IMG/VR virus record: IMGVR_UViG_3300050821_019438
Origin: an uncultured virus (IMG/VR IMGVR_UViG_3300050821_019438)
Lineage: Duplodnaviria > Heunggongvirae > Uroviricota > Caudoviricetes
Strand: one strand, 5' to 3'
DNA length: 64,000 bases
The notes below the pieces were generated by a model, which was not told the DNA's origin, did not search any database, and worked only from the letters and a program-made list of their open reading frames with translations. Below, piece by piece: positions 2,734 through 38,632 of the stretch (within the stretch, counting starts at the first letter, position 1; every line of letters begins with the position of its first letter). A program made the translations under genes and the position numbers.

Positions 2734-2748
2734 GAAGTGCCTCCTATC

Positions 2749-3354
2749 TTAGGGGCACTCCACTGCCGGGGGGACCCAGAAGCCGAGCTCGCGAAGCTTG
2801 CAGGCAGCAACGTCCACACTGATCTCGTCCACAGTGTGATCGAGGAACTGCCACCCGTTGAACGTAAGTACACAGTTGTACGGGGGCGCATTGGGCTCGC
2901 TCGCCGGGAACGCCTGCGTGAGCATGAACTCGATCTCGATGTTCTGTTGCTTGTAGAGCGGCCACCCGCTCACCCAGCGCGACGAGATGAGGTTCACGAA
3001 GTTGTTGAGCGGCGTGAAATTCGGCGAGACGAGGTAGCGCGGTCCCGAGTGCACCGTGCAGAGCACCGAGATGCCTGGTGCCTGGCGCAGGTACGCGTCG
3101 TACTGCGTCTTGAAGATGTTGCCTGCGAAGACGTTCGGCTGCTGGAGGTCGTACTGGAGATTGTCGATCCAGGTTCGCTGCGCGATCGTCGTGTCGAGGC
3201 CGGCTTCGATGGGGAGCTGCCCCAGAGCCGCAGAGGAGAATGAACCCGATGCGTTGATCGAGATGGGAATCCGAGGAATCCCGAGGACGATACCGTACGC
3301 CGCGATCGGGTCCATGACCGCGAGGTCTTGAATGTACTGCGGCTTCGGTTCCAT
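2749..3354 (-). CDS. Putative minor capsid protein (single jelly-roll-sized, beta-rich)
   Basis: 201 aa, strong RBS (AAAGGAGG), directly downstream of the putative MCP; fold is inferred. Confidence 0.5.
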   Translation of the reverse strand: MEPKPQYIQDLAVMDPIAAYGIVLGIPRIPISINASGSFSSAALGQLPIEAGLDTTIAQRTWIDNLQYDLQQPNVFAGNIFKTQYDAYLRQAPGISVLCTVHSGPRYLVSPNFTPLNNFVNLISSRWVSGWPLYKQQNIEIEFMLTQAFPASEPNAPPYNCVLTFNGWQFLDHTVDEISVDVAACKLRELGFWVPPAVECP

Positions 3355-3420
3355 GTTCGTCCTCCTTTCCCTCTGACTGTCTCGTGAAGCGAAAGCTACG
3401 AAAGCAAGGATGCCCCGAAG

Positions 3421-3458
3421 CCACCCGGCCCTCCCTCCTAGGAGGAGAAGCCGGGTAG
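3421..3458 (-). other. Stem-loop after the capsid gene (terminator or RNA-processing signal); twin at 25811..25848
   Basis: Minus-strand CUACCCGGC-U-UCUCC...GGGAGGGCCGGGUGG, 15 nt after the MCP stop; no clear U-tract. Confidence 0.6.
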
Positions 3459-3473
3459 CTCAGGAGCCTACGA

Positions 3474-4715
3474 TCAGCCGCCCGCCGACTGCGCGGTCCC
3501 GACCACGCCCGCGGGGACGAGGTGGTTCAGGATGTACTGCTTCCAGGGTCCCCAGATCTCGAAGCCCTTGATGAGGATGGCGAGCTGGAGCGCGCCGCCC
3601 TTCATGAGGACTCGGTCGGTCTGGACGGCCTTGTTGACCAGGATGGTCGTCGGCTCGGCCGTGTCCGCGAACGACAGCTCGGCGATGGTCACCGCCGTGA
3701 GCCCATCGACCGTCGAGCTGATCGGCATCACCGTGTGGGTCGCGCCGAGGCCATGGTCGTTGTTGCTCAGGTACTGCTTCATGAGCGTCTGGTGGTACTC
3801 GTCCTGCGCCTTGAGCACCATCCCGATGGGGATGCCGCGCTCGAGCAGCACCGGCTTGAACAGCTTCCGGAACGGCTGGAGCATGCCCGTCATCCCCTGC
3901 GTGCGGAGACCGCCGTAGGTGACGTCGAGCAGATCGTACGCGCGAGTCGGGTGAAACACGCCCGTGCTCGTCGCGCCGCCGGTCGTGACCGACCCGATGC
4001 GCTGCGAGTTGATCGGCAGGAACGTGCCGGGATCCGCGATGGGCGCACCCTGGTACTTGTTGTTCACGCGGTCGACGTACCGCTGGAACGCCTGCTGCGA
4101 AGAGCCCGCGGCGACTGCCTCGGCGTACGAGCCGAAGTAGCTCACGTCCGCCGCCAGCTCCGAGATCAGCAGGTAGCGCTGCTGCATGATCCACTGAAAC
4201 TGATACGCATTCATCAAATGCCACAAGGCATTTTGTGCGCAGACACCCCACTCGAGCTCGGCCGGCGTCATCGTCTGAGGACCGGTGAGACCGAGGCCAG
4301 CGAGATCGTCCGTCGCGAACGAGTCGGGCGAGTTCGGGATCGCGCCAGGCGCCGGCTGGAAGTTGACGTAGTTGCCGATCTGCGTGCCCTGCTGGGGCTC
4401 GGCGAACCCGTGAACGCCGAAGCCGATCACGAGCATGTCGACTTGCAGGATGCCGTTGATGACGAACGAGCTGTCGACGTCCTGGACCCCGGGCACTGCC
4501 TTGGGGTTCTGGAGCACGTCGATCTCGTCACCGAACGTCCCGTCGATGAACGCATCGGCGACGGGCAGATCGATCGTCCACGTCACGTACTCAATGACTG
4601 GTACCTGGGTAAATCCGCACGTCAAAACGCTGTTGACGACGTTGTCGGAGGGAGCCGCTCCGAGTCCCACCATGCGGCTGGGATTCTCGAGCTTGTGCAT
4701 GCCTGAGCTTTTCAT
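3474..4715 (-). CDS. Putative major capsid protein (double jelly-roll candidate)
   Basis: 413 aa, strong C/G3 codon bias, RBS CAGGAG, beta-strand-rich, sits after a basic membrane protein and before a hairpin; N-terminal ENP and MVGLG motifs; no HK97 features recognised; fold unverified. Confidence 0.55.
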   Translation of the reverse strand: MKSSGMHKLENPSRMVGLGAAPSDNVVNSVLTCGFTQVPVIEYVTWTIDLPVADAFIDGTFGDEIDVLQNPKAVPGVQDVDSSFVINGILQVDMLVIGFGVHGFAEPQQGTQIGNYVNFQPAPGAIPNSPDSFATDDLAGLGLTGPQTMTPAELEWGVCAQNALWHLMNAYQFQWIMQQRYLLISELAADVSYFGSYAEAVAAGSSQQAFQRYVDRVNNKYQGAPIADPGTFLPINSQRIGSVTTGGATSTGVFHPTRAYDLLDVTYGGLRTQGMTGMLQPFRKLFKPVLLERGIPIGMVLKAQDEYHQTLMKQYLSNNDHGLGATHTVMPISSTVDGLTAVTIAELSFADTAEPTTILVNKAVQTDRVLMKGGALQLAILIKGFEIWGPWKQYILNHLVPAGVVGTAQSAGG

Positions 4716-4803
4716 CTGTTTCTCCTGCGCCTGCGGGAGACCCGCATTCGCATGATTGGTTTCGAGGCGTTTGACTACCGAGGCGAACTACGAACTACGA
4801 ACT

Positions 4804-6495
4804 TCAGTCCTCCGGGAACGAGGCGTACATCCCGAAGCCCTTGGGGAGAGCTCCGAGGCACGACTCGTCTCGAATGGCTGCCATCGCGGCAGCGTGCGTG
4901 GCGGCGATGCCGCCCGAGGTGCTCGTGCAAGGAGCACACTGGGGACCCGTGCTGGGACCGCCGGGAAGAACGGTTCCGGGCGGCGCAGACGCCACGACGT
5001 CACCCGTGTTCGTGGCGATTCCGAGCGGGTGATGCAGAGGATGCGCCGGATGTCCGACCGGAATGGTCGGAAGTCCGCCCGGCACGTAGACCGACGGAGG
5101 CGTACTGCCGCCCGGCAATCCCGGAGGAGCCTGTCCCGGTCCGCCAGGCGAGAACGGCGCCTGGTTCGGCTGAGGGAACGGGAGCACAGCCGACGGAGGA
5201 GCGTTGTTCAGAGGCGCCACCATCGTGGACACCGCCTGACCAACACCTGCGCGCGGTCCGGGGTCCCGAAGTGCCGGTCGACGACCGACACCGCGGGGAA
5301 GACCCGCCGTGCCTGTCGGCGCCGCTGCCGCGGTGCCGGCTGCCGGAGTGGCTGCCGTCACCGCTGCCTGCGCTTCGACCTCGGCGAGGTAGAGCTGCTG
5401 ACCGAGCGCCGTCGAACCGATCATGGAGGCCATGACCGACTTGAACAGGTTGCCGAACAGAGCCGCACCTGCACCGAGCATCGCTCCCTGAAGAGCCGCG
5501 CGGCCCCACGGAGAGTCGACGAACGCCGCTGCGATCCCGGGCACCGCGGCGATCCCGAACTGGGCCGCCATGGACTGCCATGAGGGAAACGCTGCGGTCG
5601 CGACGTCGTTCGGAACGACCTGCGTACCGCCGGGCGGCAAGCTGTTCGCCGGCTGACCGGCCGCGACGGCCGTCGTCGACATGTACCGTCCGACGAAGTC
5701 CGCGAGACCGTAGCCGAGGATGCCGGTGATGCCGACGAGGACGAGCTCTCCTCCGGAGAGCGGGTTCGAGAGCACATAGCCCTCAGCCCCGATGGTGTCG
5801 TACGCCTCTCGCTCGCTGTACCCGGAACCTCCGCGGGGCGGAAGCCGGTGCGAACGCGGAGTGCGACGCGGGCTCGACCGACGACGGCTCGAGCTGCGAC
5901 GCGCCTTGCGGTGACGACGCCGCGGAGCCGCACGACGAGTGCGACGCGCGTGCGACCGACGAACCGCGTGACGACGCCTGCGCCGCGGAGCCGCGAGGCC
6001 GAGTCGACGACGACGCCGACGGATGCCCTTCAGGGCCGCTTTGCGGTGACGGCGAGGCTGACCCCACCACTCACGTGCACGCGCCCTCTTCCGACGGCGA
6101 CGCGGAGCTGCGCGGCGAACCGCGCGACGCCGACGCCGACGAACCGGAGCGGCGTGGTGACGACGCGCCGCGAGGCGACGCCGACGCCGACGGATGCCCT
6201 TGCGAGCCGCGCGACGGTGACGAATCGGTTGTCCCTTCCAATCGGAAGCCTTCGCCCTGCGACGCCGACGGCGCTTGGGGGCGGCTGCCGCGGGGGCTGC
6301 GGCACGACGCCGACGACGACGACGCGGCGCTGCGGCGGGGGCTGCGGCTCGGCGACGACGCCTGCGCGGCGCTGCGGCAGGAGCTGCGGCCCTGCGACGA
6401 CGGCGACGCGGAGCTGCGGCGGACGACTTCACGAAGTGGCCGCGCTTGTTGCGCTTGCGACCGCGGGCTGCCCGACTTTTCCTTCGGCTCTTCAT
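4804..6495 (-). CDS. Arg-rich protamine-like protein fused to a multi-TM, Pro-rich domain (putative genome-condensing core/membrane protein)
   Basis: Probable start MKSRRK at 6495 after GGGAG (frame open to 6840); repeats of RRRRRRAAAPAAAP; SNP motif followed by hydrophobic helices. Confidence 0.7.
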   Translation of the reverse strand: MKSRRKSRAARGRKRNKRGHFVKSSAAAPRRRRRRAAAPAAAPRRRRRRAAAPAAAPRRRRRRRAAAPAAAAPKRRRRRRAKASDWKGQPIRHRRAARKGIRRRRRRLAARRHHAAPVRRRRRRAVRRAAPRRRRKRARAREWWGQPRRHRKAALKGIRRRRRRLGLAAPRRRRRHAVRRSHARRTRRAAPRRRHRKARRSSSRRRSSPRRTPRSHRLPPRGGSGYSEREAYDTIGAEGYVLSNPLSGGELVLVGITGILGYGLADFVGRYMSTTAVAAGQPANSLPPGGTQVVPNDVATAAFPSWQSMAAQFGIAAVPGIAAAFVDSPWGRAALQGAMLGAGAALFGNLFKSVMASMIGSTALGQQLYLAEVEAQAAVTAATPAAGTAAAAPTGTAGLPRGVGRRPALRDPGPRAGVGQAVSTMVAPLNNAPPSAVLPFPQPNQAPFSPGGPGQAPPGLPGGSTPPSVYVPGGLPTIPVGHPAHPLHHPLGIATNTGDVVASAPPGTVLPGGPSTGPQCAPCTSTSGGIAATHAAAMAAIRDESCLGALPKGFGMYASFPED

Positions 6496-7005
6496 TGAGA
6501 CATTCTCCCTAGTGGAAAATCGCGGCACTTTGGCCGACTTCGAAACGGTAACGAAGTAGCCGGATCTCGTCAAACGCCTTACGTGATTGGCAGTCTTCGA
6601 ACGTGGTTTACGACCGCGCGAATAGCGATGGATCACCGAGGATTTGGCTCTAGAACGCTTCGTAAGCCTCTTGGGACTTTTCGGCTTACGTCGGACTGTA
6701 ATACGCGTGTGTGCAACGCTTTTTCGGACTCCGTTAGTCCGTTTTGCACACACCGGTATTACAGAACCAGCTTCGTCATCGTCTTGCGAACGAAACGCGT
6801 TCATACGCGCCGCATAGTCCGCACCTAGTCGCTTGGGCATCCACTACGGATACGCTCAAGCTCTCGAGGCGACAAGTTGAGCCTCTGCTCAACTCGACGC
6901 GACGAGGTCAAAAGTCGCTGGAACCGTGAAGTAGTCTCGTCTTCGCGAATCCGATCGCACAAGATCGAATCCAAGCGGAAGCAGACAACTTGTCCTTCAC
7001 AGCAA

Positions 7006-7155
7006 CTACCGTAATTCGCTCCTCGAGTGGTCGCCTCGAAGCATGTCGCCCTTGATGACGGAGAGCTTGCCCTCCACCTCGCGCTTACGTACCAGCGCGG
7101 CGGGACCGTCAAGAGAAAGTACCTTCTCGATGATGTCGGTGGTAGCTTGAGTCAT
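7006..7155 (-). CDS. 49-aa hypothetical protein (below ORF track cutoff)
   Basis: MTQATTDIIEKVLSLDG... with GGAGGT RBS. Confidence 0.5.
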   Translation of the reverse strand: MTQATTDIIEKVLSLDGPAALVRKREVEGKLSVIKGDMLRGDHSRSELR

Positions 7156-7256
7156 CGGATTTACCTCCGGTCACGACCTCAGGGTGCTTGGTAGGCACCG
7201 CTGGGGTCTTTCAATTCCTAGACTAACTCGTCGAACCTGCTCTGTCTACCGACCCG

Positions 7257-7703
7257 TCACGGAAACACGTACCCGCGGTCGTCGACGATGCAGCCATTCC
7301 CGAGTGACAACTTGTAGAGGCGCCCGTTCTTGTAGAGCGTGGGCTGACGCGACTTGAACGGATGATGGAAGCCGCCTGGAGCGCGCTTGCCCTTACGCAC
7401 GTAAAGAATCTGCGCAACGTCGCCGACTTTCTTCCAACCATCCTTCGGAATCTTCGGGAGCGTCGCGAGTACGGCTTCGTAGTCCGCACCGAAGTAGCGC
7501 CGGTGCGATCGAGTCATCTCGACCGGGCGCCGCGTCTTCTTGAAGGGCCCGAAGAAGACATCGCACTTCGGAAGAACTTTGCCCTCCTGGTCGTGAATCG
7601 TGCCGTAGGAGCTCGGAAGCCGAATGGTCTTGCCGCTGACCATCTCGAAGGCCACACGATCCGACTCGACACGAATGGACGGCGTGTCGTCACTCATGAC
7701 CAC
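7257..7703 (-). CDS. Basic hypothetical protein
   Basis: 148 aa, GGAGG RBS, globular composition. Confidence 0.65.
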   Translation of the reverse strand: MVMSDDTPSIRVESDRVAFEMVSGKTIRLPSSYGTIHDQEGKVLPKCDVFFGPFKKTRRPVEMTRSHRRYFGADYEAVLATLPKIPKDGWKKVGDVAQILYVRKGKRAPGGFHHPFKSRQPTLYKNGRLYKLSLGNGCIVDDRGYVFP

Positions 7704-7776
7704 GCACCTCCACGCGACAACCCAGGCTCAGCATCACTAGCTGAGCCCGGGGAGTCCCATGTGAACCACCGCCGCA

Positions 7777-8079
7777 TCAGATCGCCGCGAGATTCGACGC
7801 GTAAGGCTGGAAGATGCTGGGCAGGTTCATGACTGCCTGCTGTCCGGCCGGCGTCTGAAGCCACGCCTGCTCGTTTGCAGTCACCGGCGTCGAGCCTGCG
7901 GGCAGCGTCGCGGCGTACGCGGCATTGAGCTGGGACGCCTCGTAGATCGTGTACACGATCCCGGCGGCGGTGAGAGTCCCGAGACCGATGAGCAACCACT
8001 CGATGCCGGTCGGGTTCTCTTTGCCGTAAGCGCGGGCGCTGCTGAACCGGCGGTGGGACCGGCGATGATGTCTTCGCAT
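7777..8079 (-). CDS. Small membrane protein: Arg-rich leader, NP motif, TM
   Basis: MRRHHRRSHRR...KENPTGIEWLLIGLGTLTAAGIVY. Confidence 0.7.
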   Translation of the reverse strand: MRRHHRRSHRRFSSARAYGKENPTGIEWLLIGLGTLTAAGIVYTIYEASQLNAAYAATLPAGSTPVTANEQAWLQTPAGQQAVMNLPSIFQPYASNLAAI

Positions 8080-8115
8080 GGGAATCTCCTGTTGGGTTGA
8101 GACGAAAGTACGCGG

Positions 8116-9504
8116 TTAGCCACCAGCTGTCGAGGCGGTACCTACGACACCAGCTGGGACGAGATCATTTAGCGTGTAGTAAGCGAACCAATATCCCGGC
8201 GCCGTCTCCTTCCAGCCTCCCTCAATCATCGCCTTGGTCACGAACGCTGAGTTCGACGCCAAGTAAAATGAGGGGGCTTCAATTGTCGGTCCAACAGTAT
8301 GACTGGTAGCTCCACCGAAGTGAGCAACCTGAACCTGCGCACTTCCGATTGGATACCAAACCCAAACGTTCGTCTGCTGTCCGTTTCGCGTCGTGGTTCC
8401 GATTTTCTTCCACTGCCCAACAGCATGAACGTTGCCAGGACATGTCGTCGACACTGGCGAACCCGTCCCGTCCGAACGCCAGTACCCCTTCGCCATGTCG
8501 AACACCGGCGTCGACGCGTAGTAGTTCTGGTCGCCGCTCTTCTGCGCCACCATATGCTGCGCGCTCGAGGACGACACCAGCTTCGCCTGCTGAATCGCCG
8601 TCGGCTTCACGGGCACTGCTCCCACCCCGCGCACCATCTGCTGCGCGAACGCGTAGTCCTTCGCCTCTTGTACGGGAGTGCCGTCGGGAAAGCACGGTAG
8701 CCCTCTCTCGAGCCCGACAGGCACGTAAGAAGCGCAGTCAGCGCCTTGAGCGAAAGCGTGATTCATCGGGAAGACGCCGACGCCGGTCGGCTCTGGTTGC
8801 ACGGGCACCGCGCCTACTCCGATGAAGTCGCCGTGGTCCGGTTCTTTGCCCATGGTCGTCGGAGCTCCGTTGGCTGAGGAAGACATCGTGCCGCTGATGG
8901 GGTCCATCCACCATTCCTTGGTGGCCGGATAGGATTCGTCGACTCCGTATTTCTCGGACGATGGGTCGACCTTCATCCAATTACCGTTCTCGCTGAGTAC
9001 GGCACAGATGACGTGGGTCGCTTGCGTCGTTCCGTACGCCTGACCCACGATTCGCGTTTCGATACCGATGCTCAACATCGCTGACGCGAATGCGATACAG
9101 CGGTCGTCGCAATCCGCGGCCGGCATGCAGAGGCCGTGCTCGTCCAGGCACAGCGTACGCGCCGGAGTCGCCATGAGCTCGGTGTTGACCGGGTCCTGGA
9201 CGTAGACGGTCCTCTTTCGAATCTCGTTGAGAATGGCCTGCGCCTGTCCCTTGACGGTCTTCGGTTTCCCCGCGGCAATGAGAACTTTCCCGGCGAACGC
9301 GCGCAGTCGTGGATCGTTACGACCATCGCGAATGAACTTCGCCATCTCGTTGAGTGAGTAGTTCGTTCCTTCTGTTCCGGGCGGATGTCGATCTTGAGTG
9401 ACAGGCGTTCCAAGCGCCTTCGCTGCCGCAGACGCGGACGGTGCAAAGCCTTTGCCGAGACCGGCAATCGGGCGCGGGAACGCAGGAACGTCGGAGTCGC
9501 TCAT
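8116..9504 (-). CDS. Transglutaminase-like cysteine enzyme (candidate virion maturation protease) with C-terminal Trp-rich domain
   Basis: DCDD nucleophile motif, THV, and WMKVDPS give the Cys-His-Asp order of the transglutaminase-like superfamily. Confidence 0.8.
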   Translation of the reverse strand: MSDSDVPAFPRPIAGLGKGFAPSASAAAKALGTPVTQDRHPPGTEGTNYSLNEMAKFIRDGRNDPRLRAFAGKVLIAAGKPKTVKGQAQAILNEIRKRTVYVQDPVNTELMATPARTLCLDEHGLCMPAADCDDRCIAFASAMLSIGIETRIVGQAYGTTQATHVICAVLSENGNWMKVDPSSEKYGVDESYPATKEWWMDPISGTMSSSANGAPTTMGKEPDHGDFIGVGAVPVQPEPTGVGVFPMNHAFAQGADCASYVPVGLERGLPCFPDGTPVQEAKDYAFAQQMVRGVGAVPVKPTAIQQAKLVSSSSAQHMVAQKSGDQNYYASTPVFDMAKGYWRSDGTGSPVSTTCPGNVHAVGQWKKIGTTTRNGQQTNVWVWYPIGSAQVQVAHFGGATSHTVGPTIEAPSFYLASNSAFVTKAMIEGGWKETAPGYWFAYYTLNDLVPAGVVGTASTAGG

Positions 9505-9507
9505 GAT

Positions 9508-10080
9508 TCAGCTCACCGCGATCTGCTGCTGCTTCGCGACCCAGTAGTTGTTGAACACCTGCACCCATCCTGGGCCGGGCGAGCCGACCTGGCACACCGC
9601 CATAAGATTGTGCGGCAGATTCGTCACACTCGACGGGCACCAAATCCAATGTTGACCGACCTGCTGCCAAACGCCATGACCGGCTTGCGGCGCGCTCGAC
9701 GGAAACGCTCCCTGCGTGTACCAGAAACCGCGAGGGTCGAACTTGGGCGCGTACTCCTTCGGAGCAGCGACGAGGTGCCCGGCGGTTTGGAGATTGGTCT
9801 TCGCCGCAGCAGGAGGCGCCGAGGAAAGCAACGGAATCTCCACGCCTTTCGACATGGTTGTTTCATCGTGGCTCACTGCTGGCTGCCCAACCCCCTCCGG
9901 TTCGGCTCCGACACCCTCCGGCTCCTTCCCCACACCCTCCGGATCCTTCACGGTGCTCTTCGTCGTCGTCGAGGCATCCGGCCACTTCTTCCTCTCACCT
10001 CCAGGAAGCAGGCCAAGGCCGCGGATGATCCCCTGTGGAAAGACGTATTCCTTGTCCAGATGACGGTCGTCGTCGCTCAT
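9508..10080 (-). CDS. Virion protein with PEGVG repeats and Trp-rich domain
   Basis: Start MSDDDR (ATGA overlap); IRGLG, three PEGVG repeats, GVWQQVGQHWIWCP. Confidence 0.65.
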   Translation of the reverse strand: MSDDDRHLDKEYVFPQGIIRGLGLLPGGERKKWPDASTTTKSTVKDPEGVGKEPEGVGAEPEGVGQPAVSHDETTMSKGVEIPLLSSAPPAAAKTNLQTAGHLVAAPKEYAPKFDPRGFWYTQGAFPSSAPQAGHGVWQQVGQHWIWCPSSVTNLPHNLMAVCQVGSPGPGWVQVFNNYWVAKQQQIAVS

Positions 10081-10565
10081 CTTGCGCTCCTTCGCTTCGC
10101 GCGTCGCACGCGCCGGAATCTTCGTTGCGTTCCGTGACCCATCCGCAGCGGGTTGGATCTCGAGGCCGCCGGAGCAACCGCCGGTCGCATCGCCGTCCAG
10201 GCGATGAACCCCAGCAGCCCGAGCAGTGCCGCGCCGCCGAGGACCCATGCCCAGGTGGGGACGGTCGAAGCGGGCGCCGCAGGAGCCGCAACGGGCGCAG
10301 CAACCGGACCGAGATAGGACACCGGCGGAACCACGAGCGATGTGGATGGAGGCGGAGGGAGCTCCATCCCACCCACGATCGGCGTCGTGTCCGCGACCAC
10401 CGCAGGACCGGGCGGTGTCGCGTCGGCGATGGGAGGAAGAGGCACCGGCGCGGGCATCGTGGCGGGTGCGAACTCGGACCCGGTCATTTGTCCAAGTCCT
10501 GTCGGCCCTGCGGGACCTATGGGAGGAGCGCCGTTTTGAACGGCGGGCGTAGCTGTTGCTTCCAT
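10077..10565 (-). CDS. Pro-rich membrane protein with C-terminal NP motif and Arg-rich tail
   Basis: PTGLGQ; TM WAWVLGGAALLGLLGFIAW; SRSNPLR...RRFRRVRR. Confidence 0.7.
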   Translation of the reverse strand: MEATATPAVQNGAPPIGPAGPTGLGQMTGSEFAPATMPAPVPLPPIADATPPGPAVVADTTPIVGGMELPPPPSTSLVVPPVSYLGPVAAPVAAPAAPASTVPTWAWVLGGAALLGLLGFIAWTAMRPAVAPAASRSNPLRMGHGTQRRFRRVRRAKRRSAR

Positions 10566-37896: not shown

Positions 37897-38632
37897 CTAA
37901 AACTGCCAGTCCGTGCCGAGGGACATATCTGCAAGACGCTCTCGCGCTCTATCTTCAGCGTCTTCTGCGATGAGAAGCTCCCGTAGGCCGATAGAAAGTT
38001 CCGCGCCTTTTCGAGACACCCGTGCTGCTCGCGCTGCTCGCATTTTTGCTTTCGCGGCGTCACTGCGTTTCCGACCTCTAGCAGAGAGTATCGGTACCCC
38101 GGTGTGAGACAGTCTATTTTTCTCTTTGAACTCAGGGCTTCGCTTCTTTCCGGTTATCGCTATTCGCATCTTCTCCCGCGTCTCAAGCGTGCGCACCTTT
38201 CCGGTATTGGCTAAAGAGATCTTATTCTTAGTTTCAGGACTCTGAACTTTGCCCAACTGTGCTGAGCGTATTTTCTCTATGGTTTCCGGACTGCGCGGTT
38301 TACCTTTTCGCGCGAGAGCAATTTTTTCCCGTGTTTCCGAGCGCATCTTATGCCCAGAAGTACCCTCCCCGCCTTCGGTGAAGTTACAACCCAAATCTGT
38401 TCCGAACGTTCCGACAACACGCTTACACCCGTACTTCACCGAAATATGCGTGTGCTTCTCATTTCGCTTGAAATGCTTCACCCGGTGGTCTGTCCCTTTC
38501 CCCACGTATTCGTGTTTCGACGTCGATGGAAAGGGTTGGCACCTAGGGATGGTCCGAGCAGGGGAGAAGGTCTTCTACGGCTACGTCGATTATACGGACG
38601 ACGGCCGGGCCTTCTCGGCGTCGAAACACGAA
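37897..38632 (-). pseudogene. GIY-YIG/NUMOD3 homing endonuclease gene with inverted 5' segment and apparent internal deletion
   Basis: Minus strand has YVGKG...NFTEGGEG and NUMOD3-like repeats; the matching N-terminus MVRAGEKVFYGYVDYTDDGRAF is on the plus strand at 38549-38614. Confidence 0.8.
38509..38632. repeat. 18-bp inverted repeats (1 mismatch) flanking an 88-bp segment
   Basis: TTCGTGTTTCGACGTCGA at 38509-38526 and TCGGCGTCGAAACACGAA at 38615-38632. Confidence 0.9.

What the first reader, a model, noticed from the sequence alone, without database searches (positions are those of the whole stretch)
3474..8178. Capsid protein and candidate protease end in the same 20-aa tail, conserved as protein and not as DNA
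Seen: the MCP ends YILNHLVPAGVVGTAQSAGG* (3474-3536) and the transglutaminase-like protein ends YTLNDLVPAGVVGTASTAGG* (8116-8178). 16 of 20 residues are identical and 11 of those 16 use different synonymous codons; the rest of the proteins look unrelated. Inference: the enzyme copies the capsid tail to dock at the same lattice or membrane site, or both tails are read by one partner. Alternative: the more AT-rich 3' end of the enzyme gene was captured from a related virus.
Basis: partly seen in the sequence, partly recalled or inferred. Interest (0 to 1): 0.82.

Follow-up and report, generated by a model that had tools for sequence, protein, structure and literature searches.

The report
Capsid tail grafted onto virion enzyme
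In an uncultured tailless bacterial virus, an add-on domain at the end of a particle-associated cysteine enzyme carries a copy of the shell protein's own flexible C-terminal arm, most likely as a docking tag that places it in the shell; the feature is real and under selection, but it is optional and confined to a few related viruses.

Summary
ORF 3474-4715(-) and ORF 8116-9504(-) end in tails identical at 16 of 20 residues. 11 of the 16 shared residues use different codons, and DNA identity is 41/60. No other ORF in the window comes close (score 80, next 31-34).

The first protein is a probable double jelly-roll capsid protein of a large, unnamed family of tailless phages. The structural support is weak (PRD1 P3, Z 5.3). 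The second is a transglutaminase-fold Cys-His-Asp enzyme fused to a small beta domain, here called TGc. The tail sits on TGc, not on the enzyme core.

The tail is not a family trait. Only 3 of 81 distinct enzyme C-termini carry it, and the closest complete relative (capsid 94% identical) lacks TGc altogether. Other ends are membrane anchors, poly-Arg or short stubs.

Capsid-tail copies recur on TGc-family proteins of four viruses, at the end or in a loop, and one is joined to a copy of the capsid N-arm. Each copy matches a variant of the capsid tail.

Best reading (about 0.45): arm mimicry that docks TGc, and the enzyme before cleavage, where capsid arms bind. Binding is not shown.

Earlier notes of this scan described this virus family, its Gly-x-Gly tags and the enzyme, but not the shared tail.

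The parts
3474..4715 (-). Gene of P0001, 413 aa, a probable double jelly-roll major capsid protein (MCP)
   Evidence: ORF and translation. Highest GC3 among the picked ORFs of the window (0.89). More than 400 metagenomic homologues. AlphaFold model pLDDT 83, beta-rich. Best structural matches are PRD1 P3 (Z 5.3, 168 residues aligned, rmsd 6.4), PR772, STIV, D13, PBCV-1, Faustovirus and FLiP capsid proteins; all are weak.
3477..3536 (-). MCP C-terminal tail YILNHLVPAGVVGTAQSAGG (stop codon at 3474-3476)
   Evidence: LVPxGxVGTA is conserved in the near MCP clade and replaced by other tails in distant clades. pLDDT falls from 87 to 42 along residues 391-413.
4659..4667 (-). Gly-Leu-Gly (residues 17-19) in the MCP leader MVGLG|AAPSDNVVNSVL; a putative maturation cut site
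   Evidence: Position. The cleavage is inferred, from earlier scan notes. The segment after it is copied in P0178.
8116..9504 (-). Gene of P0002, 462 aa: transglutaminase-fold Cys-His-Asp enzyme fused to the TGc domain
   Evidence: Syntenic upstream of the MCP gene in the fetched loci: 66 ORFs match P0002 by phmmer.
8962..9267 (-). Transglut_core region (residues 80-181) with Cys132 (9109-9111), His164 (9013-9015) and Asp180 (8965-8967)
   Evidence: Pfam PF01841, E 1.2e-7, 32.4 bits against a cut-off of 23. The three residues are invariant in an alignment of 30 homologues. Coordinates.
8620..8628 (-). Gly-Val-Gly (residues 293-295) in DYAFAQQMVRGVG|AVP, the boundary between the enzyme and TGc
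   Evidence: Many homologues stop a few residues after this motif (P0123-P0126, L001). Stand-alone TGc proteins begin with the same motif.
8119..8610 (-). TGc accessory beta domain (residues 299-462)
   Evidence: 16 hits in an exhaustive HMMER search of 1.84 billion representatives. AlphaFold pLDDT 79 with the core above 90. No convincing PDB fold match: VIA Z at most 3.7, Foldseek E at least 0.63. Absent from the closest relative.
8119..8178 (-). Enzyme/TGc C-terminal tail YTLNDLVPAGVVGTASTAGG (stop codon at 8116-8118)
   Evidence: pLDDT 52-56 in the isolated domain model. LVPAG(V/I)VGTASTAGG is kept 14 of 15 in orthologue P0178, while the segment before it has diverged.
9508..10248 (-). g6 (P0175): a TGc-like paralogue without the tail. 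The real start is probably Met57 (nt 10080), giving the leader EYVFPQGIIRGLG and three PEGVG repeats
   Evidence: hmmsearch with the TGc profile, E 3.1e-10. Translation. The C-terminal domain of the L003 enzyme is g6-like (tblastn).

Best explanation
**Proposed mechanism: capsid-arm mimicry.** The MCP of this tailless phage ends in a flexible arm, LVPAGVVGTA..GG, that follows its last jelly-roll strand.

A small accessory beta domain (TGc) is fused here behind the Gly-Val-Gly boundary of the particle's transglutaminase-fold cysteine enzyme. TGc has acquired a protein-level copy of that arm. The copy lets TGc occupy the site that MCP arms normally occupy: a neighbouring capsomer, a cementing protein or the membrane-facing base of the shell. 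The enzyme would be held there too, until it is cut off at the boundary. So the module is built into the particle at the shell.

The tail is one of several interchangeable C-terminal anchors of this enzyme family. The others are transmembrane segments, poly-Arg ends and short stubs.

**Shown:** the shared tail; its saturation at synonymous sites; its conservation between orthologues; its recurrence on TGc-family proteins; its absence from most relatives.

**Inferred:** that the MCP arm is a lattice contact; that the copy binds the same site; that the Gly-x-Gly motifs are cut.
For: 1. The match is specific. The tail scores 80 against a next best of 31-34 in the window. The reciprocal scan starting from the enzyme tail finds the MCP as best match in the window and in L003 only.

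2. It is not a recent DNA copy. 11 of 16 identical residues differ in codon against 9.9 expected, and DNA identity is 41/60. In L003, 11 of 16 residues are identical, 7 of those use different codons, and DNA identity is 31/48.

3. There is selection on the tail. The window enzyme and P0178 are collinear orthologues, 66% identical overall. The final LVPAG(V/I)VGTASTAGG is 14 of 15 identical, although the 50 residues before ETAPGYWFA align poorly and with gaps.

4. Grafts recur on the same domain family.
   - L003 carries the tail on a g6-like paralogous domain.
   - P0178 has a second, internal copy (17 of 22 identical to MCP P0010, E 6e-8). It is joined to a copy of the MCP N-arm (11 of 19, E 0.016) and is followed by Gly-Thr-Gly.
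   - The stand-alone TGc protein P0172 ends in a 27-residue copy (score 98 against a shuffle maximum of 68).

5. The copies come in capsid-clade flavours. The window type is LVPAGVVGTA..AGG and the L003 type is LVPSG. The P0172 type is closest to the P0013/P0014 MCP tail (..VD..ST.SG..).

6. The two families are otherwise unrelated (hhalign probability 0.15%). This makes the tail a graft, not shared ancestry.

7. The enzyme's C-termini are modular. Among 81 distinct ends, at least 11 are transmembrane-like, 2 are poly-Arg, 13 stop just after a Gly-x-Gly, 29 end in Y-P-x-I-R and 3 carry the MCP-like tail. This fits the idea of interchangeable anchoring modules.

8. There is precedent in a solved double jelly-roll phage. 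In PR772 the C-terminal region of MCP P3 takes four conformations. They reach the membrane, the space between trimers, the adjacent trimer and the tape-measure protein P30. In addition, P31 and the similar N-terminal domain of P5 share the penton position (PMC6750898, passages read).
Against: - No binding is shown.
- The tail is rare: 3 of 81 distinct enzyme C-termini carry it.
- The closest complete relative, G001 (MCP 94% identical, enzyme N-part 92% identical), has no tail-bearing TGc anywhere in its 127.5-kb record. Whatever the tail does is therefore dispensable.
- Cognate-specific co-variation is not resolved. The cognate MCP tail ranks 3 of 180 for the window and 11 of 180 for L003.
- Only two pairs are known on one contig.
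- The MCP assignment itself rests on weak structural scores (Z about 5). Where the MCP arm sits in the shell is unknown.
- The weaker look-alikes (P0162, P0165/P0180, P0170) do not exceed shuffled controls.
Confidence: 0.45

Rival explanations
1. The tail is a recognition or processing element rather than a lattice arm. The cysteine enzyme, or a third factor such as a chaperone or membrane protein, reads the same peptide on the MCP and on TGc. It would do so to trim them, to cross-link them, or, on the enzyme's own chain, to act as a pseudo-substrate or cofactor.
For: - The enzyme has an intact, invariant Cys-His-Asp triad.
- Candidate Gly-x-Gly cut sites flank its domains and the MCP leader. 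Earlier notes of this scan on related viruses propose cutting at such tags.
- In P0178 the internal tail copy is followed directly by Gly-Thr-Gly. In P0165/P0180 a tail-like stretch precedes Gly-Leu-Gly. After a cut both would become C-terminal, like the MCP's own ...AGG end.
- Adenovirus protease uses a C-terminal peptide of a capsid precursor as cofactor (recalled, not from a call).
Against: - The tail itself holds no Gly-x-Gly.
- Tail ends vary: AGG, AGS, ANH, ASA, TAK.
- The Gln and Lys positions of the MCP tail are not kept in the enzyme's copy, which argues against a transglutaminase cross-link site.
- The tail also occurs on a stand-alone TGc protein with no enzyme attached (P0172).
- Relatives with the same MCP tail have enzymes with no such tail (L001, L002, L004).
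Confidence: 0.25
2. This rival concerns origin only. The 3-prime part of the enzyme gene, with its tail, was captured by recombination from a related virus of lower G+C content. The similarity to the resident MCP tail reflects the donor's MCP-derived sequence.
For: - GC3 drops to 0.54, 0.60 and 0.38 over the last 112 codons, against 0.70-0.90 upstream.
- TGc is present or absent among close relatives.
- The enzyme tail ends ..TASTAGG, like the MCP tail of relative P0004 (..NTASTAGG). It scores slightly higher against the P0005 and P0004 tails than against the cognate tail (84 and 82 against 80).
Against: - A GC3 of 0.554 is only the 8.5th percentile of this genome's own 112-codon windows.
- The drop begins in the middle of TGc, not at its boundary.
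- The orthologue P0178 has the same fusion and the same tail end. Any capture therefore predates their divergence, and the tail has been kept since.
- The same A/T-ending codon bias is seen in the independent L003 tail (6 of 16 G/C-ending).
- An origin by capture does not explain why the tail is maintained.
Confidence: 0.2
3. The tail is a neutral relic. A chance illegitimate recombination duplicated the MCP 3-prime end onto a neighbouring gene, and it has no function there.
For: - The tail is rare and dispensable.
- It is predicted disordered in isolation (pLDDT 52-56).
Against: - Synonymous sites are saturated while the peptide is kept.
- The tail is 14 of 15 identical between orthologues whose adjacent domain sequence has diverged.
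- At least three separate architectures carry significant copies: at the end of TGc, at the end of a g6-like domain, and in a loop insertion.
Confidence: 0.08

Closest known systems
[quoted passage not shown]
   Same: A second virion protein carries a sequence-similar copy of a shell component. It can therefore take the same lattice position: the penton base is a heteropentamer of 3 P5 and 2 P31 subunits (PMC6750898, passages read). Both are membrane-containing viruses with jelly-roll capsids.
   Different: In PR772 a whole folded domain of about 125 residues is shared, and it is a vertex protein. Here only a flexible arm of 15-27 residues is shared, once together with the MCP N-arm. It is copied from the major capsid protein onto an unrelated domain attached to an enzyme. 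Occupancy in the particle is not shown here.
Terminal arms of double jelly-roll MCPs as lattice switches (P3 of PRD1/PR772)
   Same: A short C-terminal extension after the last jelly-roll strand. In PR772 it contacts the membrane, neighbouring trimers and the tape-measure protein P30 (PMC6750898). This is the kind of site the copied tail would address.
   Different: There is no sequence similarity: the MCP profile finds no PDB chain at E up to 10. The position of this MCP's tail in its shell is unknown.
Capsid-targeting peptides of tailed phages, herpesviruses and encapsulins (T4 capsid targeting sequence, C-terminal tail of the herpesvirus protease-scaffold, HK97 protease C-terminus, encapsulin cargo-loading peptides). 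Recalled, not from a call.
   Same: A short terminal peptide on an enzyme or cargo directs it into an assembling shell. In several cases the cargo is the maturation protease, and it is later cut free.
   Different: Those peptides bind the shell protein but are not copies of the shell protein's own terminus. Those shells are HK97-fold. Here the peptide is a near-copy of the MCP's own arm in a probable jelly-roll virus.
Adenovirus protease AVP with its (M/I/L)XGX|G sites and pVIc cofactor. Recalled; the earlier scan notes name it too.
   Same: A cysteine enzyme of a jelly-roll virus. Candidate hydrophobic-x-Gly-x-Gly sites lie at leaders and domain boundaries (MVGLG, IAGLG, FIGVG, TGVG, VRGVG). 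A C-terminal peptide of a capsid component is associated with the enzyme.
   Different: The fold family differs: transglutaminase-like (Pfam PF01841), not adenain. No cleavage has been shown. Here the peptide is covalently part of the enzyme's own chain and copies the MCP, not a minor protein.

Membership tests
Transglutaminase-like superfamily (Pfam PF01841, papain-like Cys-His-Asp enzymes) | Profile match above the curated cut-off | tested here: met
   P0002 residues 80-181, E 1.2e-7, 32.4 bits against a cut-off of 23. Orthologue P0178 scores 26.8 bits.
Transglutaminase-like superfamily (Pfam PF01841, papain-like Cys-His-Asp enzymes) | Conserved catalytic Cys, His and Asp | tested here: met
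   Cys132, His164 and Asp180 are invariant columns in the alignment of 30 homologues, A5. An intein-like insert sits immediately before Cys132 in L003.
Transglutaminase-like superfamily (Pfam PF01841, papain-like Cys-His-Asp enzymes) | Activity (protease, transglutaminase or other) | not testable with these tools
'Protease' is an inference from the Gly-x-Gly motifs and from earlier notes.
Double jelly-roll major capsid proteins (PRD1-adenovirus lineage) | Two jelly-roll barrels spanning the chain, structurally similar to known members | tested here: inconclusive
   The model has pLDDT 83 and about 19 strands. The best matches are PRD1 P3 (Z 5.3, rmsd 6.4, 168 aligned, model 21-413 against chain 22-385), PR772 (4.9), STIV (4.7), D13, PBCV-1, Faustovirus and FLiP. 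SPV1 (5.1) and PRD1 (4.7) appear in the wide search. All Z values lie below the level at which chance arrangements are common. Foldseek gives only weak matches to jelly-roll capsid proteins.
Double jelly-roll major capsid proteins (PRD1-adenovirus lineage) | Sequence-profile match to a known MCP family | tested here: not met
   No Pfam or PHROG family matches. No PDB sequence matches at E up to 10 with the 36-sequence profile. There is no tblastn match in 50,697 phage records. This protein family is itself undescribed.
Double jelly-roll major capsid proteins (PRD1-adenovirus lineage) | Companion genes of the lineage (FtsK/HerA-type packaging ATPase, penton protein) | tested here: inconclusive
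   Pfam scans of 60 window ORFs found no such ATPase. Only Pfam thresholds were used, and no structural search of the neighbouring ORFs was made.
Capsid-targeting or cargo-loading peptides | Short terminal peptide shared by proteins that enter the shell | tested here: met
   A shared terminal peptide of 15-27 residues occurs on the MCP and on TGc-family proteins of four viruses. The difference is that one bearer is the shell protein itself.
Capsid-targeting or cargo-loading peptides | Peptide binds the shell protein and is needed for incorporation | not testable with these tools
   This needs binding or incorporation experiments. The only computational attempt gave no verdict (see Tried and rejected).

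The most novel reading that the evidence does not exclude
Viruses of this family repeatedly graft the MCP's own N-terminal and C-terminal arms onto an unrelated small domain. After cutting at the adjoining Gly-x-Gly sites, the fragments would have MCP-like ends and would be woven into the jelly-roll lattice as pseudo-subunits, for instance at positions where a capsomer arm has no partner. On this reading the particle's cysteine enzyme rides in on one of them. This would be a so far undescribed way of recruiting minor capsid proteins and a maturation enzyme, by mimicry of the major capsid protein's terminal arms. The recoding of the tail into A/T-ending codons in two genomes would then reflect selection against recombination between the two copies.
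Probability: 0.2. Interest if true: 0.75.

Novelty: new variant of a known kind. Interest (0 to 1): 0.55.

Why it matters
**If the reading is right.** This would be a natural case in which a virus directs an enzyme-bearing module to its shell by copying the shell protein's own flexible arm, rather than by evolving a separate binding peptide.

- It points to the MCP C-terminal arm as a transferable address tag in a large, uncultured group of tailless, probably membrane-containing phages.
- It gives a simple test: incorporation with and without the last 15-20 residues.
- It suggests a way to load foreign proteins into such shells.
- It marks the C-terminus of the family's cysteine enzyme as a swap site for anchors (membrane, DNA, shell). 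That in turn indicates where in the particle the enzyme acts.

**If the reading is wrong.** The finding is still a clean example of a short peptide kept by selection in two unrelated proteins while the DNA has fully diverged.

Tried and rejected
- **Complex prediction.** MCP residues 1-390 (alignment A1) were folded with TGc (alignment A4) as the partner. The verdict was 'no answer', score 0.00 against a mark of 0.32. Controls were not run, and the partner's own fold was uncertain in at least one run. This counts neither for nor against binding.

- **Known phages.** tblastn of both proteins against 50,697 phage records gave no match. PHROGs gave no family for either.

- **Fold of TGc.** No convincing match was found. 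VIA wide search gave Z at most 3.7 and Foldseek against PDB gave E at least 0.63.

- **Deeper homology between MCP and TGc.** Rejected: hhalign probability 0.15%.

- **More contig-paired examples.**
  - The TGc profile and P0159 in viral contigs found nothing.
  - P0172 found only the MCP tails of L002 and L004.
  - A word search with residues 296-462 found nothing in the 254-809 aa range. P0178's cluster is represented by a 135-aa fragment, which lies outside that range.

- **Weaker look-alikes.** P0162 (VEVYGPWKDYYPK), P0165/P0180 (ALIPQGLAG before GLG) and the loop insert of P0170 (ALVPSGIVGT) do not exceed shuffled controls. They are not counted as grafts.

- **Transglutaminase cross-link site.** Considered and set aside. 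The Lys and Gln of the MCP's WKQY and the Gln of TAQS are not kept in the enzyme's copy.

- **Assembly artefact.** Rejected. The tail pair recurs in an independent complete record, L003 (equal to L041), with different DNA.

- **Other tails shared within loci.** The reciprocal scan from every enzyme tail found none.

- **Literature.** Searches listed no paper on a capsid tail shared with a virion enzyme, or on transglutaminase-fold enzymes in double jelly-roll phages. Only the held open-access library was searched.

- **Whole genome.** None is held for this window.
Full report
**Observation.** The window holds ORF 3474-4715 on the minus strand (P0001, 413 aa) and ORF 8116-9504 on the minus strand (P0002, 462 aa). 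They end YILNHLVPAGVVGTAQSAGG* and YTLNDLVPAGVVGTASTAGG*.

One search counts 16 of 20 identical residues. 11 of those 16 use different codons, against 9.9 expected if codons were drawn independently from each gene's usage. DNA identity is 41 of 60.

In a six-frame scan of the whole window, the capsid tail scores 80 against the enzyme's C-terminus. No other ORF exceeds 31 at its end or 34 anywhere. BLASTP aligns only the last 59 residues (E 3e-6).

**What the two proteins are.** The window is a virus-like genome of about 62% G+C. It encodes a family A DNA polymerase, a primase-polymerase/VapE protein, ThyX, RadC and a methylase. It has no tRNA and no match among 50,697 deposited phage genomes for either protein.

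P0001:
- It has the highest GC3 of the picked ORFs (0.89).
- It has more than 400 metagenomic homologues.
- It matches no Pfam, PHROG or PDB sequence.
- Its AlphaFold model (36-sequence alignment, pLDDT 83) is beta-rich.
- The best whole-length structural matches are double jelly-roll capsid proteins: PRD1 P3 (Z 5.3, 168 residues, rmsd 6.4), PR772, STIV, vaccinia D13, PBCV-1, Faustovirus and FLiP. These scores are in the range where chance arrangements occur, so 'double jelly-roll MCP' is probable, not shown.
- A language-model look-up gave 'phage major capsid protein' clusters at 0.95, but with few shared features.
- Earlier notes of this scan on other genomes reached the same view of this virus family. 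They describe it as tailless and membrane-containing, with Gly-x-Gly tags and a transglutaminase-fold enzyme. Those notes are leads, not independent evidence.

P0002:
- It passes Pfam Transglut_core (32.4 bits against a cut-off of 23).
- Cys132, His164 and Asp180 are invariant in 30 homologues.
- Its gene lies upstream of the MCP gene throughout the family: 66 ORFs in the fetched loci match it.

**The tail sits on an accessory domain.** Residues 299-462 of P0002 form a separate beta domain, here called TGc. It follows the motif DYAFAQQMVRGVG (Gly-Val-Gly at residues 293-295).

An exhaustive HMMER search of 1.84 billion representatives found 16 relatives of TGc. They fall into three groups:
- fused to the enzyme (P0130, P0132, P0148, P0178);
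- stand-alone proteins that begin with the same ..AFPQ..RGLG leader (P0162, P0164, P0169, P0170, P0172);
- the first domain of 650-740-aa proteins that end in a membrane anchor (P0161, P0166-P0168).

The window also has a tail-less paralogue, g6, directly upstream (E 3.1e-10). The TGc model is confident in its core (pLDDT above 90) and has no convincing PDB match. Its last 20 residues have pLDDT 52-56, as expected of a free peptide.

**Distribution of the tail.** I fetched 116 loci around MCP homologues. Several are the same contig held in two collections, for example L003 and L041.

An unbiased comparison of each MCP tail with every other ORF end in its locus singled out only the window (score 80) and L003/L041 (score 55). 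The background has a median of 27 and a 95th percentile of 36. The reverse scan from the enzyme tails gave the same two.

Among 104 enzyme sequences with 81 distinct C-termini, the classes are:

| C-terminal class | Distinct ends |
|---|---|
| MCP-like tail | 3 |
| Conserved ..Y-P-x-I-R (distant clade) | 29 |
| Stop within 30 residues after a Gly-x-Gly | 13 |
| Transmembrane-like segment | at least 11 |
| Poly-Arg | 2 |
| Other | 23 |

The closest relative is L001, in the complete record G001 (MCP 94% identical, enzyme N-part 92% identical). Its enzyme stops right after VRGVG, and no tail-bearing TGc occurs anywhere in its 127.5-kb record. P0124 keeps a short remnant of the TGc linker.

So the tail is not a property of the enzyme family. 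It is dispensable, and it belongs to an optional module.

**Evidence that the tail is nevertheless selected.**

1. Synonymous sites between the two copies are saturated in the window and in L003 (11 of 16 residues identical, 7 with different codons, 31 of 48 bases). These are not recent DNA copies.

2. P0178 is a collinear orthologue of P0002, 66% identical overall. It shares a 90% cluster with the fragment P0159. It ends LVPAGIVGTASTAGG, 14 of 15 identical to the window's tail. The preceding 50 residues of the domain align poorly and with gaps.

3. Significant copies of the MCP tail occur in different architectures.
   - L003 has it at the end of a g6-like domain fused to an intein-bearing enzyme.
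   - P0172 is a stand-alone TGc protein ending AWKQYILNNLIPGGVVDTAS.. (score 98 against a shuffle maximum of 68).
   - P0178 has a second copy inside a loop of TGc (WKQYILNHLVPEGVVGTATGTG). It is 17 of 22 identical to the MCP P0010 (E 6e-8). It runs straight into APPTGNVVDSVL, a copy of the MCP segment that follows the leader's Gly-Leu-Gly (11 of 19, E 0.016).

4. The copies come in MCP-clade flavours.
   - Window and P0178: LVPAG..GTA..AGG.
   - L003: LVPSG, as in its own MCP.
   - P0172: closest to the P0013/P0014 MCP tails (..VD..ST.SG..).
   - Cognate-level tracking is not resolved: the cognate ranks 3 of 180 distinct MCP tails for the window and 11 of 180 for L003.

5. The MCP and TGc families are otherwise unrelated.

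**Mechanism.** The most economical reading is arm mimicry.

In the solved double jelly-roll phage PR772, the C-terminal region of MCP P3 adopts four conformations. They reach the membrane, the space between trimers, the neighbouring trimer and the tape-measure protein P30. The penton position is shared by P31 and the sequence-similar N-terminal domain of P5 (PMC6750898, passages read).

By analogy, the arm after the last strand of this MCP is a lattice or membrane contact. A copy of it on TGc would place that domain at the same site. The enzyme would be placed there too, until it is cut off at VRGVG. The variety of other enzyme C-termini (membrane anchors, poly-Arg) fits a general pattern of interchangeable anchors that position the enzyme inside the particle.

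None of the following is shown: that the arm is a contact, that the copy binds there, or that the Gly-x-Gly sites are cut. I put this reading at about 0.45.

**Rivals.**
- *A common reader of both tails* (about 0.25). In its favour, two internal copies lie just before a Gly-x-Gly, so they would become C-terminal after a cut. Against it, the tail holds no Gly-x-Gly, its ends vary, and a stand-alone TGc protein carries it without an enzyme.
- *Capture from a lower-G+C relative* (about 0.2, not exclusive). This concerns origin only. GC3 of the last 112 codons is 0.554, only the 8.5th percentile of the genome's own windows, and the orthologue P0178 already has the same fusion.
- *A neutral relic* (about 0.08). 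This is unlikely given points 1 to 3 above.

**An unexplained detail.** In both genomes the enzyme's tail uses A/T-ending codons where the MCP uses G/C-ending ones. G/C-ending codons number 9 of 20 in the window and 6 of 16 in L003 (p about 0.01-0.02 each). This could reflect a foreign origin, low expression, or selection against recombination between two direct repeats that flank essential genes. I could not tell these apart.

**Comparison with what is known, and novelty.** Short terminal peptides that load enzymes into shells are known from tailed phages, herpesviruses and encapsulins (recalled). Sharing of a folded module between two proteins that take one lattice position is known from PR772.

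I found no description of a targeting tag that is a near-copy of the major capsid protein's own flexible arm, grafted onto an unrelated domain of a transglutaminase-fold enzyme in a jelly-roll virus. The searches covered the open-access library only. I rate it a new variant of a known kind.

Interest is moderate (0.55). The phenomenon is real, selected and mechanistically suggestive. The P0178 graft of both MCP termini is striking. But the feature is confined to a few related uncultured viruses, is dispensable, and has no demonstrated binding.

Noticed in passing
P0178 residues 355-388 (metagenome protein; no locus held): A loop of the TGc domain holds an insert that reads like a head-to-tail junction of the capsid protein. 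The MCP C-tail copy is followed by Gly-Thr-Gly and then by a copy of the MCP N-arm that follows the leader's Gly-Leu-Gly. The same protein also ends in the tail.
   Followed up: partly
L003:4868-7513 (+), also L040, L043, L049, L010: The enzyme gene of L003 is interrupted directly before the catalytic Cys (..GDC|FPKGTLV....VSN|CDDRC..) by an insert of about 400 aa. The insert has a weak Hint-module match (E 6e-4, below Pfam's cut-off) and is probably an intein. tblastn hits to the enzyme are split at the same place in four other loci.
   Followed up: partly
window 9508-10248 (-): g6 is a tail-less paralogue of TGc. It has the leader EYVFPQGIIRGLG and three PEGVG repeats. The listed ATG start is probably too far upstream; Met57 at nt 10080 fits the homologues.
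   Followed up: partly
window 2749-3354 (-): The real gene after the MCP gene is this 201-aa ORF (P0176). It is 97% identical in L001 and 51-89% in the other loci compared, often more conserved than the MCP. It has no Pfam match. The longer overlapping ORF 2744-3424 has GC3 0.43 and looks spurious. P0176 may be a second capsid or vertex protein.
   Followed up: partly
window 8119-8178 and L003:7462-7510: Both enzyme tails are written in A/T-ending codons (CTA, AAT, GAT, CCA, GCT, GGT, GTA in the window; TTA, CTA, AGT, GTA, CCT in L003), while the MCP tails use G/C-ending codons. The cause is unknown.
   Followed up: partly
L007-L036 and L072-L116, enzyme C-termini: In the distant clade nearly all enzymes end in a conserved GDFVGMSG ... 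LDLLYPGIR. That end matches no other ORF end in its locus. Its role is unknown.
   Followed up: no
window 4659-4667, 9454-9462, 8812-8820, 8776-8784, 8620-8628: Hydrophobic-x-Gly-(Leu/Val)-Gly motifs lie at the MCP leader and at every domain boundary of the enzyme. This matches the Gly-x-Gly tag that earlier notes of this scan describe in related viruses.
   Followed up: partly
window 3418-3460: An inverted repeat (CCCGGC ... GCCGGG) lies directly after the MCP stop codon on the gene strand. It looks like a terminator (read; no scan was run).
   Followed up: no
window 37897-38505 (-): This ORF has a NUMOD3 motif (E 1.4e-11) and is probably a homing endonuclease. It lies next to a PD-(D/E)XK nuclease gene.
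   Followed up: no
G001 (record of L001): The closest relative's record is 127,529 bases with direct terminal repeats. That is about twice the 55-63 kb of G002-G004 and of this 64-kb window, so it may be a head-to-tail dimer assembly.
   Followed up: no
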